Positions 1-39,948 of a stretch of DNA of 64,000 nucleotides are shown here, one piece after another (within the stretch, counting starts at the first letter, position 1; each line of letters starts with the position of its first letter). The stretch is from a candidate division CPR3 bacterium GWF2_35_18 (GTDB lineage: Bacteria; Patescibacteriota; CPR3; GWF2-35-18). Both the position numbers and the translations under genes were made by a program. The notes below the pieces were generated by a model. It saw only the letters and a program-made list of their open reading frames with translations, made no database searches and was not told where the DNA came from. The stretch spans positions 17,467-81,466 of the forward strand of contig MESW01000005.1 in assembly GCA_001771135.1 (NCBI GenBank). The letters run 5' to 3'.

Positions 1-771
1 TTGTCCGACAAAAGGAAAAATCAAGGTATCAAAATTAATATTTTCCAAAGGTATCTGCAGCTCCTTAGTAATAAAATCAATCAAGCTATTACGATCTTTG
101 AAGTTACTCTTCATCAAAACATTGTTAATTAGAACTTGGAAATTATTGTTTTTTAGAAATTTAATACTTTTAATTGTTCTTGCAAAAGAACCTTTGATAC
201 CGGTAATTTCTTCGTGGACGTTTTCCTTATCACTGTATAAAGAAAACTGGAAAATCGGTTTCCATTTTTTGAACTTCAAAATCTCTTTTTGAATTATTTG
301 GTTCGTGGCTAGTAGATATCCATTGGTAAGGATTGAAACCGTAATATTCTGCTGACTTTTCTCAATCGTATGCAGTATTTCAAAAAAATGTGGACTTAAA
401 AAAACGTCACCGCCAGAAAAGGTAATATGCTCAATTCCCCAATCTAATAATCTTTGTAGAATAATCCGTGATTGTTCTAAGGAAATTGATTTTTCAAGAG
501 GATTTAAATTCTGATAACAGTGCTTACAATTAAGACTGCATTTTAGGGTTAAAATCCAGGTAACATTTTTCTTGGCGGAAAGAATCAAACCTTCTTCTTT
601 TAAATACTTTACAAATTCTTTTTCTTGATCATCCAAACTGGAAAATGTTTTTTCACCTTTTACTAATGATTGAAAAAATTTAAAACCTTCAGGGCTTATA
701 TCCCATTCCTGTCCGCTAAACGGATCATAAATAATATTATTCCTATACCATAAAGATGGGATATTAATCAT
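1..771 (-). CDS. Radical SAM enzyme with N-terminal RRE/PqqD-like domain (RiPP-maturase-like). It is partial: the 3' end runs off the window start.
   Basis: I hand-translated the minus strand from ATG 771..769 and found no stop down to base 1 (at least 257 aa). It has a CxxxCxxC cluster (CSLNCKHC) about 75 aa from the N-terminus and a glycine-rich FSGGD SAM motif. The N-terminal 75 aa look like a winged-helix RRE (GEKTFSSL...KEFVKYLKEEGLI). The ORF track omits it because no stop falls inside the window. Confidence 0.65.
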   Translation of the reverse strand, partial: MINIPSLWYRNNIIYDPFSGQEWDISPEGFKFFQSLVKGEKTFSSLDDQEKEFVKYLKEEGLILSAKKNVTWILTLKCSLNCKHCYQNLNPLEKSISLEQSRIILQRLLDWGIEHITFSGGDVFLSPHFFEILHTIEKSQQNITVSILTNGYLLATNQIIQKEILKFKKWKPIFQFSLYSDKENVHEEITGIKGSFARTIKSIKFLKNNNFQVLINNVLMKSNFKDRNSLIDFITKELQIPLENINFDTLIFPFVGQ

Positions 772-799
772 ATAAGTTAAAATATATTAGATGAACTAA

Positions 800-835
800 A
801 ATAATCAGCCATTTAATAAAAAAAGGCTGATTATT
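800..835 (-). promoter_or_regulatory. Stem-loop between the peptide sORF and the radical SAM gene: an 11-bp perfect stem with a 14-nt U-rich loop, likely an attenuator or processing site.
   Basis: aataatcagcc (800-810) and ggctgattatt (825-835) are perfect reverse complements. Confidence 0.45.
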
Positions 836-864
836 CATGTAAAAAAGAAACTTACGTATAAAAA

Positions 865-972
865 TTAGTTATTAAAAACAGCTTTATTTGAGCTATTTGA
901 GCAAAGACTCATTTTAGCAATAGAAACTTTTTTTCGTGCTTTAATAGTAAGTTTTCTACTTTGTTTATTCAT
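865..972 (-). CDS. 35-aa sORF, a candidate RiPP precursor peptide (MNKQSRKLTIKARKKVSIAKMSLCSNSSNKAVFNN).
   Basis: Hand translation gives ATG 972..970 and TAA 867..865. A GGAGG Shine-Dalgarno sits 5 nt upstream (plus 976-980 cctcc). The peptide has a basic N-terminal half and a Cys/Ser/Asn-rich C-terminal half. It lies about 95 nt upstream of the rSAM-RRE gene on the same strand. Confidence 0.4.
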   Translation of the reverse strand: MNKQSRKLTIKARKKVSIAKMSLCSNSSNKAVFNN

Positions 973-1000
973 TTTGCCTCCATATATTAATATTTTATAT

Positions 1001-2062
1001 TTATTTTGTTGTTATCTCTCCACACCAATCGGTTTGTATCATTTTTTCAATCTTTTGTCTATTTTTTTCTTCACCTAAAACAACCATTAATTTCGTTAAG
1101 GCAGCTGTTGAGGTCATATCAATTGCTGAAATAATACCTAAATCTCCGCCGACTTTTCCCCCATAATAAATAGAAAAATCTATTGAACCACTAAAAGAAG
1201 CTCGAGCAGCTACAATAATCATCCCTTTATCAGTAGCCTTTTTTAATACGTCCACGATATGAGGAGGAAACTCTCCCATAAAATAAGGAACTATTAATAA
1301 GCCACGATAATGATTTTCTACTAGCACTTCAAATAACTTTGGATCAATTTGAGGATATAACTTTAAATAACCAACTTTTTTCTCAATGTTCTTCATTACT
1401 CTCAATTTTTTATCCAAATCTCTTTTAAAACGATGTGGAGAAAGATCTAATCCGAATTGAACTTCACCAAGCGCTTCGAACTCTCCTGAACCAAATATAT
1501 CACTTCCAAAGAGATCAACTACAGAGGTTCTATTTGCTCTAAGCAATTTTTTCCCAAAAAGGATACAGACTTCACTTAGATCCATAGTGGCAGCCTGAAC
1601 CGCGTTGATTAAATTACTTCTTGCCTCAATACTTCCCATCGTATTCTTATAAATATCTTTATGAGTATTGAAGATTACATTCGCTTCTTTTTCATTTGGA
1701 GGAAATCTTGAACCAGTAAAAATAACCGGCTTTCCTAAATTCCTTAGAAGAAATGAGACTGCAGATGCAGTATAAACTATCGTATCTAAACCATGTGTAA
1801 TAACAAAGCCATCACAATCTTTATAGTTTTCGTAGATTGATTCTGCGATCTGCAACCAATGTTTTGAACTAATTTCATAACCGGAAACATTAAATAAGTT
1901 AATTGGATGAATTTCTGCAATCAAGTTAATTTCTGGAATTTCCAACATCCATTCATTAAAATCACAAGAACTTAACATTTTTAAAGTTTTAGGATCTCTT
2001 CTAGCAGCTATTCCTCCTCCTGTTAGAATTAATCCAATTTTCGGTCTTTTATTCATAGACAT
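1001..2062 (-). CDS. L-asparaginase / GatD-like amidohydrolase family protein.
   Basis: The N-terminal motif GLILTGGGIAA (TGGTIAG-like) and the hGTDT motif (VITHGLDTIV) are typical of the asparaginase family. Length is 353 aa. Confidence 0.65.
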   Translation of the reverse strand: MSMNKRPKIGLILTGGGIAARRDPKTLKMLSSCDFNEWMLEIPEINLIAEIHPINLFNVSGYEISSKHWLQIAESIYENYKDCDGFVITHGLDTIVYTASAVSFLLRNLGKPVIFTGSRFPPNEKEANVIFNTHKDIYKNTMGSIEARSNLINAVQAATMDLSEVCILFGKKLLRANRTSVVDLFGSDIFGSGEFEALGEVQFGLDLSPHRFKRDLDKKLRVMKNIEKKVGYLKLYPQIDPKLFEVLVENHYRGLLIVPYFMGEFPPHIVDVLKKATDKGMIIVAARASFSGSIDFSIYYGGKVGGDLGIISAIDMTSTAALTKLMVVLGEEKNRQKIEKMIQTDWCGEITTK

Positions 2063-2094: not shown

Positions 2095-2415
2095 CTATTT
2101 ATCAACATTCTCGGCTTGCTTTTGATACAAAACTACTGCCTCTTCTAGAACCGTAATCATAAAACCATCGTTATTTTTTTTTAATATTTCAAATTCTTTC
2201 TCTGTATAAAATAGTGGGTTAATAATTAAAACCGATTTATTAAGTTTAAGAATGCTTTTAATCCGTTCGATAAATCGTAATTTTGTTTCTCCGATTACTA
2301 AAATATCCATAGCTGCATGTTTACGAGACCTTCCTCGAGCATAAGAACCGAATAAATAAATTCTTTCTGGATCAAATTCTTTGACAATCTTTGATACGAG
2401 GCTTTTCAATTTCAT
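2095..2415 (-). CDS. Minimal nucleotidyltransferase (MNT/MntA-like antitoxin). I prefer the start at the internal Met; the track's start at 2490 would overlap the HEPN gene by 55 nt.
   Basis: LFGSYARG...DILVIG is a GS-x(n)-D-x-D pol-beta nucleotidyltransferase motif. The protein is about 107 aa from M26. Confidence 0.6.
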   Translation of the reverse strand: MKLKSLVSKIVKEFDPERIYLFGSYARGRSRKHAAMDILVIGETKLRFIERIKSILKLNKSVLIINPLFYTEKEFEILKKNNDGFMITVLEEAVVLYQKQAENVDK

Positions 2416-2435
2416 CCGGATATTTTTGTTTTTAA

Positions 2436-2834
2436 TTAGTAGATCAAGGTCTGAATTCTCTGTAAGATCAACCTCGCTTCGCGTAGGCATTCTTGCGCCT
2501 CCTTGTCATTAATAAATTCATGTGGAGTCATAATTTCCTGAGGGATTGCTAAAGGATAACGTGAAATAAAAGTAATCGCTTCTAAATTGTCATGCTCAAG
2601 ATACACCTTTCTAAATTCTGGATTTGCCTTTTGGCACATTTTATACAAAATAGAAACACGATGAACTCGAGGAATTTTGTTACCGCAAAAAACGAGATAT
2701 GCTTTTAAAGATTTTTCGGCTGTTTGTTGTGCCTGAAAACAAGCCCACTCATAATAACCGTTGCTAAACGATAGATTAGCGGCTTGAAAATCAAAATCAG
2801 CTTGTTTGAGCCAGATAAGCTGTGTCTCAATCAT
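2436..2834 (-). CDS. HEPN domain protein (HepT-like toxin partner of the MNT).
   Basis: AQQTAEKSLKAYL is a HEPN helix, and there is an R-x(n)-H-like motif (PRVHRV). It sits immediately upstream of the MNT gene in the same operon. Confidence 0.6.
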   Translation of the reverse strand: MIETQLIWLKQADFDFQAANLSFSNGYYEWACFQAQQTAEKSLKAYLVFCGNKIPRVHRVSILYKMCQKANPEFRKVYLEHDNLEAITFISRYPLAIPQEIMTPHEFINDKEAQECLREARLILQRIQTLIY

Positions 2835-8456: not shown

Positions 8457-8718
8457 AGGGACTCCTTTTTTAACCCTGACCTCATCTTAATTCCTTATTA
8501 AGTCTACTAGTTTCCTATCTATCAACCTAAATCAACTTAACGGCGCAGTATAACATATTAAAGCACATGATGCAACATTGAATTATTATCCTATAGTTGA
8601 ATAATATTTATACTGATTTAACTTCACACTATACTTATTATTAACCGAAACACCAACACAGAAAATCCTTTACTATCTTTCATAATAAATTCGTTTGGAG
8701 TATAATATATCTCTCTTT

Positions 8719-8978
8719 GGGAAAAAGGATGATTGCTCTATCGCAAGGTAGAGAGGAAAGTCCAGACAGCATAAAGCACGGTACCTTGTGTAAACAAGGA
8801 CGGGTAACCGCTAGTCTAGAGCAACAGAAACGAGTCCCGCCTATGGCGAGGAATGAAACGGGCAATCCTTACCGGCTGCAACTTATAGTAGTTATTTGCT
8901 ACCGCTTGTAGTAACTACAAAAACAAGGCATTAGACAGATGATCATCACAAAACAGAATCTGGCTTACTCTTTTCCCA
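8719..8978 (+). ncRNA. rnpB: RNase P RNA (rnpB), a reduced form of about 260 nt.
   Basis: P1 pairs GGGAAAAAG (5' end) with CUUUUCCC (3' end). A P3 hairpin CUCUA-ucgcaagg-UAGAG is followed by the universally conserved GAGGAAAGUCCAGAC (P4 5' strand). GAGCAACAGAAACGAGUCCCGCC resembles the P10/P11 region. ACAGAAUCUGGCUUA near the 3' end matches the conserved ACAGAAnCCGGCUUA P4 3' strand. A TATAAT box lies at 8701-8706. Confidence 0.75.
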
Positions 8979-9308
8979 AATAAATTAGAGGTTAATACAG
9001 AATAATCATGTGTATTCTGATCTTCTGGATTAACAAAGTCATATCCAGGTTCTTATTTACAGAATATTATAACTCATAACTATCAGTTATAATATAACTA
9101 AATCTAGAGAATATTCTTTTACTTACAAAATTAGACCTTCCAGCCTAAACACTATTAGAATAAAAAAAACTCTATCAACAGTTTTCCGAGTCATAAAACT
9201 ACTTAAAATATGTCCCTAATTATTTGATCAACTAACACCTACTATCACCAGAAATCCTTGATTGGTAAAATTTGGAAACTCTTACATACTAGATTCTGAA
9301 ACGGCTTA

Positions 9309-12300
9309 TTAACCTTCTAAACTAAGATCTTGATTGTTATCAAAACTTTCCTGATTCTGATCTGTTATGGGAGCAGGAGTCTCCTCAGGTTCAATTTCAA
9401 CCGAAGGTGGTGTTTTTTCAGGATACAATCTACTCTGCATAAACTCTCTTAATTGTGCAAAATATTTAGCTGCTTGAGAAGGATCATACCAAACATTTGT
9501 ATTATCAAATTCAGGAAATATTAAACTACCAGAGTCAGGATGGCGCATCACTTCTAAAGCTGGTTCAGTAGCCTCTGGAGAGATCTGAAATCTCTGGAAT
9601 TGAGGAACCAAGGAACTATTTACATTACCTTCGGCTGCTAAACGAATTAAATTCCCTAAATTTTTCGGGTCTTTCATAGACATTAACGCTATCTGCATAA
9701 AATCTGAAAACATCTTTGACTTTTGACCTTCTTGATCAGTATCAGGATCATTAAATTCGAGATTCCAAGTCATTCTTAATGACCCATCTTCTTCCAAAGA
9801 TTCGAAATCTTGAGTCATACGAATCAAATTCAGAATTGCTTGAGGGGCTTTTAAAGGATCCTGTAAATCTCTTGTTAACTGATCAGCTATTGCTTCAAGA
9901 AGTTGAGTCATCGTTCCGGAAGCTCTTTGTTCTCGGTCAAAATAACCTTGAGCTGATGACATTCTTGATCTTACAAAAGCCAATAATTCTGTTCCGGAAA
10001 AATTATAAGTTTCGCCGTCTTTAAACTCAGTGTATTTTCCATTCAAGTAACCCGCAAGAAATTCATCGGGAATAAATCCTTCACCTTCTTCAATTCTAAT
10101 ATCGATACCTTGAGGGAAAAGCGTATCTATTATTTGAGAAAATCCATTCATATCTGTTTCTAAAACGCCATCAAATGGTAAACCAAAGGCATCTTCAAAA
10201 ACATCTCTGGCAATTTCTCGATCAATCTGTTGGTATCCTTCTCCACGAGCAAGTGCTTCTTGATCGATCCAGGTTATACCATTTGCTGATACTCCATTTA
10301 ATTCAGGCAGTTTTAGATGTCTTGGAATAGTGAGAATTGTGATGGAATTATTTTTAATATCGTAACACAAACCATGGAACTGATCTGCATGTCCAAATTC
10401 TGTATCTCTACCTTCTGCTCCTGAATCCTTACCAAGTAAACCGAAACATATAATATTATTGTTTAATCTTTCTGCCCCACCAATCTTTGCAAGATATTCG
10501 GTCTGTTCTTCAGGAGTCATTCCTTCAACTCTGTCTAACCTTGCACTAAGAAATTCATTCCAGACACTACCTCCAAAAATAAACTCCGGAAGAGTTAAGG
10601 TTTCTTCATGCTCTGGAGTAGCTACTGTTTCTGCATCAGAAACAAGTTGCTGTTCTGCATCTCTATCATCATTTAAAATATTGTCCTGATCTGAAGTTTC
10701 TGTTGTCTTTGAAGTATCTGTTGGGATAGCATCATCGGAAGCAGTATCCGTTCCGAAAATTTCTGTTTCTGATAAAGATGCCTCCTGTGTCAACTGCGTT
10801 AACCTATCCAAATTCCCTTCTGTGGTAGCTGTTGGAGAACCAGTATTCAACTGAAATCCTGTCTCATCATTAGAAGAAGATAGAAGCGTTTTAAAAAAGG
10901 TAACAACATCTTCACTATGATGCCATAAATCCATACCAAATTCTTTAACATTTTCAAATAAATTAGATTCATCGGGATTATTTATTTGATGAAAATCTGA
11001 TCCTTCCAAGGACTGTTGTAGATGTCCTTCACCAACATATGGTAGATCACCCAAATCCTGTTCCGGAGATAATGTAGAAGCTATACCTGCAGCAGCTCCT
11101 CCCAAAATAGATACTAAACGTAACCCGTTAATAATTTTTAATCTCAAAGCATTTCTGCGTTCATATTCTTCACTGTTATAACTTGCTAATTCCGCATTAT
11201 ATCTACCCTCAAGAGAATCTGAAGTCTCTTGAAGATATTTATCTAACTTCTGCTGCACTTTTCCCGGTTGACGTAAATTTTCGGCACGGCTATGCCAACC
11301 CACACGATCCCATACTTGAGCCCACCTTTCATTACCTCGTCTTTCCCTTTCTGCATGTGCGGAGAATTTTTGCCCCTGCTTTTTATCTAAAGCTTTCTGT
11401 TCAAACATTTTATGGCGACGCGATTCGTACTGTTTTCTTAGCTCCGGAGTTAACCATTTTTGACCTAGGATGTAATCAACCCTATCTAATTCTTCTCCCT
11501 CAAAATGACCATATTGTAAATCGTGTAATTCTTCAAGAGCAGCAGCTAAAGAAGATTCATCATGGACTAATTCCCGCAGTTCATTAATTTTTTCATGAGT
11601 TTCTTCAGATTGATGAAAAATATCTTCATCACCTCGTAAATTTGTAGAAATCCTTTGAATATACTGTGTAATAATTTCTTGTTCTCTTTTTATCAAATAA
11701 ACTCTTATCTGATTTTCTCTCTCTGATAATTGATCTGGACTTGCATTAACAATCTGCCTCTCCCTATCAGAATATCGAGGTAAAATGCCTCTTTCCACAA
11801 ATTGATTATGAAAATATTGCTGTCTATCTCTATCTAAATCTGCCCAGATAATATCTGCAACTTCATGCTTCCAATGAAGCTCTTCTTCTTCCGCAATCAA
11901 TAAATATCCCGGATTTTCTGATTCTAATCTTTCCTGTAAAGCAGCTATCTTTATCGTTGATTGCAACTCGGAATTTAGTTGATCAACAGAAACATCAGAC
12001 AAAGTAGGTTGCAGAGATAAAGCAGAAAGAACAATCCGTGACATCAAATGATCCGTTTGTCCATCAGGAATAGTGCCTATAATTTCTTCTAAATAATCTG
12101 AAACGCGATCACCAATGGCATGGAAAATACCATCTTGCTCCATAGAATCTGGAGTGAATTTTATAACTTCATCCTGAATTTTTTTAACAATAGGGAACAG
12201 CTGTTTTTCAAAAAATGCTTGCGGTAAATTTGCAAATCTCTCTTGACTCCTCAAAGTTAAAATGACAGCTTGCCAAGGACTATTACTGACTTTTACCGAC

Positions 12301-13154
12301 TCTTCCACGGAAATAGTCCCCATTTCTTTGCGTCGTGATTCTAATGACCTTAAGGCCAAGGCTTGAAATTTATTTTCTGCTGTCCTTTTACGGGAATCAA
12401 CGTCACGAACATCTCCAAGATTCTCAATTAATTTGTCTAATGCATCTGGATCAAGATGACCTTCCCGATCAACTCCAACCTCACTTAATATTCTGTATTG
12501 TAGATATGAACGACCCTCTGAGGACAAACTTGTACGGTGCGTACTGGGATCTGTATCCACCATCCAATCAAAAATATCTGCACTAACTGTATCACACTGC
12601 GAATTACGTGCTTCTTTTACCTGTTTACGTAAAATTCTGGCAATTGTCGCATTATATTGTTGCTCATTATTGCGAAGGTTCTGTTTAATACCTTGATAAT
12701 CTTCTTCAAGTCTGTGAACATATTCTTCTAATCGATCTAAGTTAACGGTATTCCCATCTCCAACAATCGTACCCAAACGTGCTTGCAATTCCATCCAACC
12801 ATCGTGTGTAAGCTGACGATATGCTTGTTTATACTCTTTAGTGGGATCAACATAAAATAATTGTCCGTATTCTATTTTCCATTTTATTTCTTGATTTAGA
12901 GCTTCTTGAATTGCAGGTAGAACTTTTTCTCTTTTCAAGATAGAAGGAGCAACATCTGCTTGTCCATGATATGTTTGACTCCAAGACTCTCTTACAATAG
13001 GTTCACGATCTGCAATATCTACTAAAACTTCATCCGGACTATCTGCATTTTGCCGATGCGCTTCAATTCTATCAATAATTGCTTCCCTAGGAGAAACTAT
13101 TTCGCTTCCATGTTCTCCACCCTTTTTCCTAAAAATACCGTTAAAAAATCCCAT
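9309..13154 (-). CDS. Giant (1281 aa) LCP (LytR-CpsA-Psr) family protein. It has a roughly 660-aa acidic N-terminal region with no recognisable domain and no apparent signal peptide, then one TM-like segment (LVSILGGAAAGIASTL), an S/T/D/E-rich linker, and a C-terminal LCP domain.
   Basis: LCP signatures are ICFGLLGKDSGAEGRDTEF...ITILTIPRHLKL and FSGTELLAFVRSRMSSAQGYFDREQRASGTMTQLL. The gene appears more GC-rich than the window background. Confidence 0.65.
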   Translation of the reverse strand: MGFFNGIFRKKGGEHGSEIVSPREAIIDRIEAHRQNADSPDEVLVDIADREPIVRESWSQTYHGQADVAPSILKREKVLPAIQEALNQEIKWKIEYGQLFYVDPTKEYKQAYRQLTHDGWMELQARLGTIVGDGNTVNLDRLEEYVHRLEEDYQGIKQNLRNNEQQYNATIARILRKQVKEARNSQCDTVSADIFDWMVDTDPSTHRTSLSSEGRSYLQYRILSEVGVDREGHLDPDALDKLIENLGDVRDVDSRKRTAENKFQALALRSLESRRKEMGTISVEESVKVSNSPWQAVILTLRSQERFANLPQAFFEKQLFPIVKKIQDEVIKFTPDSMEQDGIFHAIGDRVSDYLEEIIGTIPDGQTDHLMSRIVLSALSLQPTLSDVSVDQLNSELQSTIKIAALQERLESENPGYLLIAEEEELHWKHEVADIIWADLDRDRQQYFHNQFVERGILPRYSDRERQIVNASPDQLSERENQIRVYLIKREQEIITQYIQRISTNLRGDEDIFHQSEETHEKINELRELVHDESSLAAALEELHDLQYGHFEGEELDRVDYILGQKWLTPELRKQYESRRHKMFEQKALDKKQGQKFSAHAERERRGNERWAQVWDRVGWHSRAENLRQPGKVQQKLDKYLQETSDSLEGRYNAELASYNSEEYERRNALRLKIINGLRLVSILGGAAAGIASTLSPEQDLGDLPYVGEGHLQQSLEGSDFHQINNPDESNLFENVKEFGMDLWHHSEDVVTFFKTLLSSSNDETGFQLNTGSPTATTEGNLDRLTQLTQEASLSETEIFGTDTASDDAIPTDTSKTTETSDQDNILNDDRDAEQQLVSDAETVATPEHEETLTLPEFIFGGSVWNEFLSARLDRVEGMTPEEQTEYLAKIGGAERLNNNIICFGLLGKDSGAEGRDTEFGHADQFHGLCYDIKNNSITILTIPRHLKLPELNGVSANGITWIDQEALARGEGYQQIDREIARDVFEDAFGLPFDGVLETDMNGFSQIIDTLFPQGIDIRIEEGEGFIPDEFLAGYLNGKYTEFKDGETYNFSGTELLAFVRSRMSSAQGYFDREQRASGTMTQLLEAIADQLTRDLQDPLKAPQAILNLIRMTQDFESLEEDGSLRMTWNLEFNDPDTDQEGQKSKMFSDFMQIALMSMKDPKNLGNLIRLAAEGNVNSSLVPQFQRFQISPEATEPALEVMRHPDSGSLIFPEFDNTNVWYDPSQAAKYFAQLREFMQSRLYPEKTPPSVEIEPEETPAPITDQNQESFDNNQDLSLEG

Positions 13155-39793: not shown

Positions 39794-39870
39794 TGGTCGG
39801 GGATACTGGACTCGAACCAGCGACCTTACGCACCCCATGCGTACGTTCTAGCCATCTGAACTAATCCCCG
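39794..39870 (-). tRNA. tRNA-Pro (anticodon GGG), 77 nt with encoded CCA.
   Basis: Folded by hand. The acceptor stem is CGGGGAT/ATCCCCG, the D-stem GTTC/GAAC, the anticodon stem TACGC/GCGTA with loop A-T-GGG-G-T, and the T-arm GCTGG-TTCGAGT-CCAGT, with discriminator A plus CCA. Confidence 0.85.
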
Positions 39871-39917: not shown

Positions 39918-39948
39918 CAAAAAAGCACGCGGTTACGCGTGCTTTTAT
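39918..39948 (-). terminator. Rho-independent terminator after rpsI (it also reads as bidirectional).
   Basis: AGCACGCG-GTTA-CGCGTGCT is a perfect 8-bp stem, flanked by A6 on one side and T4 on the other. Confidence 0.65.

What the first reader, a model, noticed from the sequence alone, without database searches (positions are those of the whole stretch)
1..972. RiPP-like locus: SD-bearing 35-aa peptide sORF, stem-loop, then a radical-SAM enzyme with N-terminal RRE-like domain
A 35-aa ORF with a near-perfect GGAGG SD (rare in this AT-rich sequence) sits about 95 nt upstream of a radical SAM gene on the same strand. The first 75 residues of that gene look like a PqqD/RRE peptide-recognition domain rather than a housekeeping rSAM N-terminus. 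An 11-bp perfect stem-loop separates the two genes. Together this is the classic precursor-hairpin-maturase layout of sactipeptide/ranthipeptide-type clusters. The peptide's C-terminal half (MSLCSNSSNKAVFNN) carries a single Cys plus Ser/Asn. The maturase continues past base 1, so a SPASM domain cannot be seen.
Basis: partly seen in the sequence, partly recalled or inferred. Interest (0 to 1): 0.7.

Follow-up and report, generated by a model that had tools for sequence, protein, structure and literature searches.

The report
Peptide plus radical-SAM maturase in CPR3
A tiny, conserved 35-residue peptide gene sits just upstream of a radical-SAM enzyme that carries its own peptide-docking domain, so this looks like a real, uncharacterised two-gene system for making a modified peptide in an uncultured, small-genome CPR3 bacterium.

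The parts
865..972 (-). Precursor-peptide gene: 35 aa, MNKQSRKLTIKARKKVSIAKMSLCSNSSNKAVFNN, stop TAA at 865-867. The N-terminal ~23 residues are a basic putative leader with net charge +8. The C-terminal 12 residues are the putative core, with invariant Cys24, Phe33 and Asn35-COOH.
   Evidence: ORF list and sequence. Orthologues of 34-38 aa occur in 6 other lineages with the fixed motif C-x8-F-x-N-stop. Synonymous codon changes occur at the invariant Ser, Cys, Phe and Asn, and pN < pS in 21 of 21 pairs. No Pfam or NCBIfam match.
977..981 (-). Shine-Dalgarno GGAGG, 4 nt upstream of the peptide ATG.
   Evidence: Sequence. A GGAGG or AGGAGG also precedes the peptide start in all six other lineages. 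45 of the 57 GGAGG sites in the window are on the coding strand.
800..835 (-). Stem-loop between the peptide and enzyme genes: 11 perfect pairs, extendable to 14-15 with one mismatch, a 6-nt loop and a U-rich 3' side. Probably a partial intrinsic terminator or attenuator.
   Evidence: Top inverted repeat of the window. MFE -19 kcal/mol, z = -5.4. Non-homologous GC-rich hairpins, mostly followed by U runs, sit in the same spacer in L008, L011, L009, L095 and L096 but not L007. The consensus terminator scan did not call it.
574..771 (-). [quoted passage not shown]
1..573 (-). Radical SAM core of the maturase, residues 67-257 of 400. The rest, including the SPASM domain, lies beyond base 1. The CX3CX2C cluster motif (C78, C82, C85) is at 517-540.
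   Evidence: Translation. Pfam PF04055 E = 5e-21. The full gene is at L001 11292-12494, with SPASM PF13186 at 28.7 bits against a cut-off of 21.5. Ten Cys are invariant across 7 lineages: C78, C82, C85, C295, C313, C349, C352, C357, C360, C374.

Best explanation
This is a minimal two-gene RiPP (ribosomally synthesised, post-translationally modified peptide) locus of candidate division CPR3. The 35-aa ORF is the precursor. Its basic, beta-strand-like N-terminal part (consensus L-x-[IV]-K-A-x-K-K-V-S-[IV]-x-K) would act as a leader that docks onto the enzyme's N-terminal RRE domain. The radical SAM/SPASM enzyme then uses a 5'-deoxyadenosyl radical to abstract a hydrogen in the C-terminal 12-residue core and installs a crosslink involving the invariant residues Cys24, Phe33 and Asn35. 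The hairpin between the genes would let the peptide transcript accumulate in excess of the enzyme transcript, as in other RiPP operons. Shown here: the peptide gene is real and under protein-level selection; the enzyme has RRE, radical SAM and 7-Cys SPASM domains; and the pair co-occurs in all seven lineages. Inferred: the peptide is the substrate (about 0.75; the confidence value given refers to this pair-level claim). Speculative: the chemistry. My first choice, at about 0.35 absolute, is a single thioether from the Cys24 sulfur to Phe33 or Asn35, of the sactionine or ranthionine type. That would give a 10-12-residue C-terminal macrocycle.
For: The peptide is conserved in 7 of 7 lineages whose enzymes are only 46-59% identical. 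Length is fixed at 34-38 aa, and K15, S17, C24, F33, N35 and the stop are invariant. Synonymous codons differ at the invariant S, C, F and N, and pN < pS in every pair. A peptide HMM finds nothing else in 98 loci or the window. The RRE fold is supported. The best whole-chain fold hits are the RRE-bearing RiPP maturases SkfB, SuiB and CteB. The best PDB sequence hit is SkfB at E = 4.5e-12. The SPASM domain shows the signature C295-x12-G-x4-C313, then C349-x2-C-x4-C-x2-C360, then C374. The nearest outgroup with readable context is an Enterococcus Rgg / radical SAM-SPASM / MFS operon of the streptide type. Hairpins occur in the peptide-enzyme spacer in 6 of 7 lineages without sequence homology. 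For the thioether guess there are four points. The single invariant Cys lies N-terminal to the invariant Phe and Asn. Cys-to-Phe (subtilosin Phe22, Phe31) and Cys-to-Asn (thurincin H Cys13-Asn19) sactionine links are known. SKF has a single thioether (PMC8172795). AlbA is the second-best NCBIfam hit, covering both core and SPASM.
Against: All seven loci share the same gene order (asparaginase, peptide, radical SAM, 182-aa protein, SecDF), so adjacency could be inherited rather than functional. A terminator-like hairpin could equally mean two separate transcription units. No protease, transporter or immunity gene is nearby. The Pfam PqqD model does not detect the N-terminal domain. The models rest on shallow alignments (6-13 sequences, pLDDT about 75). 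The leader is unusually basic for a RiPP leader. Nothing here discriminates between candidate chemistries: the enzyme is far below every curated family cut-off (HxsC 88 of 268 bits, AlbA 85 of 850), and its nearest relatives are unclassified radical SAM/SPASM proteins.
Confidence: 0.75

Rival explanations
1. The precursor-maturase pair is the same, but the enzyme makes a three-residue cyclophane (triceptide-type). This would be a C-C bond from the Phe33 ring to the beta-carbon of Asn35 on the invariant C-terminal F-x-N motif. Cys24 would serve another role, such as metal or cluster contact or a disulfide.
For: F-x-N is invariant and always exactly C-terminal in 7 of 7 peptides. Triceptides are defined by an aromatic-to-C-beta crosslink on omega1-X2-X3 motifs. 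Phe-containing motifs and single-motif precursors are known (PMC11499958). The top NCBIfam hit is HxsC, the maturase of the His-Xaa-Ser system, at 88 bits.
Against: The HxsC match covers only the generic radical SAM core and is far below its cut-off of 268 bits. This reading does not explain the invariant Cys or the fixed C-x8-F spacing. No curated family cut-off is reached, and the 25 best families listed contain no named triceptide-maturase model.
Confidence: 0.17
2. The pair is the same, but the product is not a secreted crosslinked peptide. It is an intracellular, cofactor-like or otherwise processed product, in the style of mycofactocin or PQQ. The exact C-terminal residues would be the site of chemistry, or the enzyme would epimerise residues.
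For: The locus is vertically inherited among housekeeping genes in a reduced genome. It has no transporter, protease or immunity gene. The C-terminus is exact and invariant, like MftA's C-terminal Val-Tyr (my own knowledge). MftC and PqqE models give weak matches. An amidohydrolase of the asparaginase family lies 28-97 nt upstream in the five lineages where the gap was measured, and the peptide ends in Asn.
Against: MftC scores 48.7 of 265 bits and PqqE 57.8 of 381 bits, both far below cut-off. No MftD/E-like or PqqB/C-like genes are nearby. The asparaginase looks like an ordinary type I enzyme (TIGR00519, 214 bits).
Confidence: 0.13
3. The small ORF encodes a real, conserved, basic small protein, for example one that binds nucleic acid or the ribosome, but it is not the enzyme's substrate. 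The two genes are neighbours only through inherited synteny, and the hairpin simply terminates the asparaginase-peptide transcript.
For: Synteny extends over more than 10 kb in all seven loci. Terminator-like hairpins separate the two genes in 6 of 7 lineages. Peptide net charge is +6 to +10.
Against: An enzyme with an RRE needs a peptide partner, and no other candidate small ORF is conserved nearby. The peptide family was found only beside this enzyme family. An invariant Cys, Phe and C-terminal Asn at fixed spacing is typical of a RiPP core.
Confidence: 0.1
4. The small ORF is a chance open frame in an intergenic region and is not translated.
For: It is short, gene callers missed it in some records (L003, L005, L095, L096), and it has no database family.
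Against: It stays open with the same ends in seven lineages, always behind a GGAGG site. It shows synonymous-only variation at invariant residues and pN < pS in 21 of 21 pairs. The flanking spacers are of unrelated length and sequence.
Confidence: 0.02

Closest known systems
CteB / SCIFF (CteA) ranthipeptide system of Clostridia
   Same: It is a minimal two-gene layout of a short precursor plus one enzyme with an N-terminal RRE, a radical SAM core and a two-cluster SPASM domain. CteB is among the best whole-chain and RRE-domain fold hits. In CteB, one SPASM cluster has an open site that binds the substrate Cys (PMC8172795).
   Different: SCIFF peptides carry six Cys; this peptide has one. No SCIFF-maturase model appears among the 25 best NCBIfam families listed. 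Sequence identity is about 17-18%. The host here is CPR3, not Firmicutes.
SkfB / SkfA (sporulation killing factor) sactipeptide system
   Same: SkfB is the best PDB sequence hit (E = 4.5e-12) and the best Foldseek hit (E = 8e-14). It has an RRE and a radical SAM core. It installs a single thioether from a Cys to a residue 8 positions downstream, Cys4-Met12 (PMC8172795); the spacing here is 9 (Cys24 to Phe33).
   Different: SkfB has a Twitch domain with one auxiliary cluster, not a full SPASM domain. The skf operon also encodes a protease, a thioredoxin and exporters. The TIGR04403 score is 50 bits against a cut-off of 300.
AlbA / subtilosin A
   Same: AlbA has an RRE, a radical SAM core and a SPASM domain. 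It makes Cys-to-Phe alpha-carbon thioethers, with acceptors Phe22 and Phe31 (PMC8172795). It is the second-best NCBIfam hit and the match covers both core and SPASM.
   Different: The score is 85 bits against a cut-off of 850. Subtilosin has three crosslinks and head-to-tail cyclisation, and the alb operon is large.
Triceptide synthases (3-residue cyclophane-forming radical SAM enzymes; XncB, HtkB, HaaB and others)
   Same: These are radical SAM/SPASM RiPP maturases acting on omega1-X2-X3 motifs. The invariant F-x-N here fits that motif (PMC11499958).
   Different: No sequence evidence places this enzyme in a triceptide family. Those precursors do not typically carry an invariant Cys at a fixed distance.
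Streptide-type Rgg-controlled radical SAM RiPP operons of Firmicutes
   Same: One of the nearest outgroup proteins outside the family is P0009 from Enterococcus durans (25% identity). It sits in an Rgg / radical SAM-SPASM / MFS operon. SuiB is a top fold hit.
   Different: The CPR3 locus has no Rgg regulator or MFS exporter, and its peptide has no Trp or Lys-Trp motif.

Membership tests
Radical SAM superfamily | CX3CX2C motif binding the SAM-cleaving [4Fe-4S] cluster, and a match to PF04055 | tested here: met
   C78-x3-C82-x2-C85 is invariant in 7 lineages. PF04055 scores 74-76 bits against a cut-off of 29.5.
SPASM subfamily of radical SAM enzymes | C-terminal 7-Cys motif (CX9-15GX4C ... CX2CX5CX3C ... 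C) for two auxiliary clusters, and a match to PF13186 | tested here: met
   Seen on the full gene from the source contig, not in the window: C295-x12-G308-x4-C313, C349-x2-C352-x4-C357-x2-C360, C374. All are invariant, and the inner spacings are one residue shorter than canonical. PF13186 scores 28.7 bits against a cut-off of 21.5.
RRE (PqqD-like RiPP recognition element) domain | Winged helix-turn-helix fold with three beta strands and three alpha helices | tested here: met
RRE (PqqD-like RiPP recognition element) domain | Sequence match to the Pfam PqqD model | tested here: not met
   No Pfam family matched residues 1-69 even at E <= 10. This is common for divergent RREs, so fold evidence is used instead.
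RRE (PqqD-like RiPP recognition element) domain | Binds the leader of the cognate precursor | not testable with these tools
   Needs a binding assay or co-folding. The only support here is weak charge complementarity: leader +4 to +8, RRE region -1 to -6 in 6 of 7 lineages.
RiPP biosynthetic locus (precursor + maturase) | A short precursor gene next to the modifying enzyme, co-oriented and conserved together with it | tested here: met
   7 of 7 lineages. Caveat: all of these loci are syntenic.
RiPP biosynthetic locus (precursor + maturase) | The peptide is actually modified by the enzyme | not testable with these tools
   Requires co-expression and mass spectrometry.
Sactipeptide / sactisynthase (AlbA, SkfB, StsB families) | Family HMM cut-off reached | tested here: not met
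   AlbA 85 of 850 bits, SkfB 50 of 300, StsB 56 of 625.
Sactipeptide / sactisynthase (AlbA, SkfB, StsB families) | Cys sulfur to alpha-carbon thioether in the product | not testable with these tools
   A donor Cys N-terminal to conserved candidate acceptors (Phe33, Asn35) is compatible with this (PMC8172795).
Ranthipeptide, SCIFF type | Precursor with six Cys in about 45 residues | tested here: not met
   All seven peptides have exactly one Cys.
Triceptide (3-residue cyclophane) systems | An omega1-X2-X3 motif (aromatic at position 1) in the precursor core | tested here: met
   F-[NTG]-N is invariant at the C-terminus. Definition from PMC11499958.
Triceptide (3-residue cyclophane) systems | The maturase belongs to a known cyclophane-synthase family | tested here: inconclusive
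   No curated model reaches its cut-off. HxsC is the top hit, but on the core only, at 88 of 268 bits. Only the best 25 of 53 weak hits were shown.
Mycofactocin (MftC) / PQQ (PqqE) cofactor maturases | Family HMM cut-off reached, with accessory genes nearby | tested here: not met
   MftC 48.7 of 265 bits, PqqE 57.8 of 381 bits. No MftB/D/E-like or PqqB/C-like genes are in the 20-kb locus.
Anaerobic sulfatase-maturating enzymes | Substrate motif C/S-x-P/A-x-R and no RRE | tested here: not met
   None of the peptides has CxPxR or CxAxR after the Cys, and the enzyme has an RRE.

The most novel reading that the evidence does not exclude
The locus makes a new class of radical-SAM-modified peptide confined to candidate division CPR3. 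It would be a short, very basic peptide whose exact C-terminus (C-x8-F-x-N-COOH) carries a crosslink topology or combination not yet described. Examples are a Cys-to-C-terminal-residue thioether together with, or instead of, a Phe-Asn cyclophane. It would be kept by vertical inheritance in a reduced genome without export or immunity genes. That suggests a role in the cell's own physiology or in its dependence on a host, rather than as a classical bacteriocin.
Probability: 0.3. Interest if true: 0.65.

Novelty: new member of a known kind. Interest (0 to 1): 0.48.

Why it matters
CPR/Patescibacteria are uncultured bacteria with very small genomes. [quoted passage not shown] My literature searches found no report of this locus. 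This is a conserved two-gene radical-SAM peptide system that has survived genome reduction across CPR3 lineages whose enzymes have diverged to about 50% identity. It is therefore likely to do something useful for the organism. It is also small enough (35 aa plus 400 aa) to test directly by co-expression. The enzyme family is sharply isolated from all others (697 to 182 bits), so its chemistry cannot be read from homology and could be new. It still fits the well-known RRE-radical SAM-SPASM template, and many such orphan families exist.

Tried and rejected
- **GTDB species-representative genomes.** I scanned them with the enzyme alignment and with a 26-base degenerate pattern for the peptide motif. 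Both found nothing, so no extra lineages or presence/absence contrasts came from there. The peptide pattern was validated first on all known loci.
- **JGI metagenome scan.** It returned only two true family members. The other 78 loci hold generic radical SAM/SPASM genes at 31% identity or less, and none carries the peptide.
- **NCBIfam classification.** I ran it on the enzyme and on ten of its nearest non-family relatives. No family cut-off was reached and nothing informed the chemistry.
- **Rfam on 700-1100.** No riboswitch or known leader RNA was found.
- **Consensus terminator scan.** It did not call the hairpin. Energy and repeat analyses did.
- **The 182-aa gene downstream as a third cluster member.** Rejected as an obligate partner. 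It is a DNPH1/Rcl-like domain fused to a ribbon-helix-helix domain. It is more conserved than the enzyme (66-84% identity), and homologues at 42-51% identity sit in unrelated contexts without a radical SAM gene.
- **Uncalled enzyme gene in L005.** It is an assembly gap of 51 N, not a pseudogene.
- **Formylglycine (anSME-like) chemistry.** Rejected: there is no CxPxR motif and an RRE is present.
- **First structure job.** I re-ran it with the near-identical P0001.

Full report
**Observation**

- A 35-codon ORF at 865-972 encodes MNKQSRKLTIKARKKVSIAKMSLCSNSSNKAVFNN.
- GGAGG lies at 977-981, four bases before the ATG.
- The spacer to the next gene is 93 nt.
- The spacer contains an inverted repeat with 11 perfect pairs. 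It extends to 15 nt per arm at 93% complementarity, with arms at 800-814 and 821-835 and a 6-nt loop. This is the top-ranked local inverted repeat in the 64-kb window.
- The spacer RNA folds at -19 kcal/mol against -7 +/- 2.2 for shuffles, z = -5.4. A simple consensus terminator scan did not call it.
- The next gene starts at 771 and runs off the window. It has CSLNCKHC at residues 78-85 and matches Pfam Radical_SAM at E = 5e-21.
- GGAGG is not enriched overall (57 found, 72 expected). But 45 of 57 are on the coding strand, often just ahead of start codons. It is therefore this genome's normal ribosome-binding site and a sign of a real gene.

**Source and full gene**

An exact-match look-up of the upstream asparaginase gene recovered the source contigs. 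The names attached to the proteins identify candidate division CPR3 bacterium GW2011_GWF2_35_18 and near-identical assemblies.

The full enzyme is 400 aa. Beyond the window it carries a SPASM domain, with PF13186 at 28.7 bits against a cut-off of 21.5. The domain shows the signature C295-x12-G-x4-C313, then C349-x2-C-x4-C-x2-C360, then C374. All ten Cys are invariant in seven lineages.

Downstream lie a 182-aa protein, SecD, SecF, RecJ and RelA/SpoT. Upstream lie a type I asparaginase, a HEPN/nucleotidyltransferase pair and others. No protease, ABC or MFS transporter, or immunity gene is present.

**Is the N-terminus an RRE?**

Sequence models do not detect it: no Pfam hit for residues 1-69 even at E <= 10. 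Structure prediction does.
- Both the full-length model (pLDDT 76) and the domain-only model (pLDDT 75) give three strands (8-10, 13-16, 21-24) followed by helices (27-37, 48-59).
- Foldseek on the domain returns TbiB1 (TM 0.68, prob 0.99), a lasso-peptide B1 protein, McbB and CteB as top hits.
- The full-length model's best hits are SkfB, SuiB and CteB, aligned over about 384-413 columns.

The caveat is that the alignments behind the models are shallow.

**How big is the family, and does the peptide travel with it?**

The enzyme family is very small.
- Six clusters were found in a 5.8-billion-cluster protein collection, using a single sequence or a profile.
- Two contigs were found in JGI metagenomes.
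- None was found in GTDB species representatives.
- In an exhaustive profile scan of 1.84 billion representatives, one representative scored 697 bits and the next protein 182 bits.
- Pairwise identities among the seven sequences are 46-59%.

Genomic context was readable for five lineages directly. Two more came through the conserved downstream gene.

In all seven, a 34-38-aa ORF with a GGAGG or AGGAGG site lies between the asparaginase and the enzyme. In two of them gene callers had missed it, and a peptide HMM built from the other five found it. The peptides are:
- MNKQSRKLTIKARKKVSIAKMSLCSNSSNKAVFNN
- MATKNNKSHNLEIKASKKASVVKADTCAEKPKKVAFTN
- MANTTSKLQVKATKKVSVVKMGTCASKPEKIAFNN
- MKKEKKLVVKAIKKVSFIKKGTCSNNPKKVVFGN
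- MAKKQNLSIKTNAKKSIVKMGTCTGKPEQVAFGN
- (V)AKQYRKLTIRVKKKFSVTQIGTCSNKPERVVFGN
- MAKKEKVLQLKAKKKVSVAKVGTCDSKTAKVIFNN

Invariant across all seven are K15, S17, C24, F33, N35 and the stop immediately after Asn. The spacing C-x8-F-x-N-stop is fixed. The invariant Ser, Cys, Phe and Asn use different synonymous codons in different lineages, and pN < pS in all 21 pairs. The flanking spacers range from 21 to 263 nt and are unrelated in sequence. So this is a protein-coding gene under purifying selection.

The HMM found no other copy in the window or in 98 fetched loci, including about 80 loci with distant radical SAM/SPASM genes.

**The hairpin**

Stable GC-rich hairpins occupy the peptide-enzyme spacer in six of seven lineages: L001, L008, L011, L009, L095 and L096. 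Most are followed by U runs, and they show no sequence homology to one another. L007 has only a 21-nt spacer. This fits the attenuator arrangement seen after structural genes in RiPP operons. It fits equally well a plain terminator ending an asparaginase-peptide transcript.

**What it most likely does**

The evidence fits a minimal RiPP pair. The basic leader has net charge +4 to +8, with alternating hydrophobic and Lys residues. It would dock on the RRE, which is mostly acidic (net -1 to -6 in six of seven lineages) while the whole enzyme is usually basic. The radical SAM/SPASM enzyme would then modify the 12-residue core.

The chemistry cannot be read from homology.
- No curated NCBIfam cut-off is approached: HxsC 88 of 268 bits, AlbA 85 of 850, SkfB 50 of 300, MftC 49 of 265, PqqE 58 of 381.
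- The nearest non-family relatives are themselves unclassified.

I therefore rank candidates by the peptide's invariant residues.
- **First choice (about 0.35 absolute):** one thioether from Cys24 to Phe33 or Asn35. The donor Cys precedes the acceptors, as in sactipeptides. Cys-to-Phe and Cys-to-Asn sactionine links and a single-thioether product (SKF, Cys4-Met12) are known, and CteB's SPASM cluster binds the substrate Cys (PMC8172795). SkfB and AlbA are the best characterised sequence matches.
- **Second (about 0.17):** a Phe33-to-Asn35 beta-carbon cyclophane, because F-x-N fits the omega1-X2-X3 definition of triceptides (PMC11499958). This leaves the invariant Cys and the fixed spacing unexplained.
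- **Third (about 0.13):** cofactor-like or other intracellular processing at the exact C-terminus. This is suggested by the absence of export and immunity genes and by vertical inheritance among housekeeping genes.

**Weaknesses**

- All seven loci share the same gene order over more than 10 kb. Co-occurrence of peptide and enzyme is therefore not independent evidence of a functional link, and I could not find a lineage that has lost one or both.
- The rival that the peptide is an unrelated small basic protein keeps about 0.1.
- The 182-aa downstream gene is probably not part of the system. It is a DNPH1/Rcl-like domain fused to a ribbon-helix-helix domain. It is more conserved than the enzyme (66-84% identity), and it occurs elsewhere without a radical SAM neighbour.

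**Novelty and verdict**

The architecture (precursor, hairpin, RRE-radical SAM-SPASM enzyme) is a well-known kind. This enzyme family and this precursor family are uncurated and uncharacterised, annotated only as hypothetical or by generic domain names. Text searches found no paper on them.

[quoted passage not shown] I therefore file this as a new member of a known kind. There is a reasonable chance (about 0.3) that the product has a new crosslink topology and a non-bacteriocin role.

Interest is moderate.

Noticed in passing
window 8717-8983 (+): A bacterial class A RNase P RNA (Rfam RF00010, 120.9 bits, E = 1.8e-36). It spans the whole 367-position model in only 267 nt, so it is a strongly reduced RNase P RNA. 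It lies on the strand opposite to nearly all protein genes.
   Followed up: no
window 2095-2834 (-): An overlapping HEPN (2436-2834) and nucleotidyltransferase (2095-2490) gene pair, which looks like a toxin-antitoxin module. It is present between the 192-aa gene and the asparaginase in L001 and L007. It is absent at the same position in L009, L011 and L096, so it behaves like a mobile insertion in an otherwise syntenic region.
   Followed up: partly
L001 12512-13060 (just beyond window base 1, same strand as the enzyme): A 182-aa protein that fuses a DNPH1/Rcl-like (nucleoside 2-deoxyribosyltransferase-like) domain to a C-terminal ribbon-helix-helix domain. The PDB match is 2khz, E = 1e-5. 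It has no Pfam or NCBIfam family. It is 66-84% identical across CPR3 relatives, more conserved than its neighbours, and also occurs in unrelated contexts. It may be a nucleotide-sensing regulator.
   Followed up: partly
window 1001-2062 (-) and 865-972 (-): A type I asparaginase-family gene ends 28-97 nt upstream of the peptide gene in the five lineages where the gap was measured. The peptide's invariant last residue is Asn. This may be coincidence or a functional link, for example deamidation of the C-terminal Asn. It was not tested.
   Followed up: no
window 39794-39870 (-) and 39921-39946: The only tRNA in the 64 kb is tRNA-Pro(GGG). A perfect 11-bp GC-containing hairpin, AAAAGCACGCG/CGCGTGCTTTT, lies just beside it.
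   Followed up: no
window 9309-13154 (-): A very large ORF of 1281 aa whose product carries a LytR_cpsA_psr domain. In assembly L002 the same region is called as two genes, which suggests an assembly or frameshift difference.
   Followed up: no
GTDB species-representative collection: Neither the enzyme nor the peptide motif was found in 185,579 species-representative genomes. Yet the locus exists in at least four NCBI assemblies of this CPR3 organism. These assemblies appear not to be representatives, or the region is masked. Absence from that collection therefore says little about true distribution.
   Followed up: no
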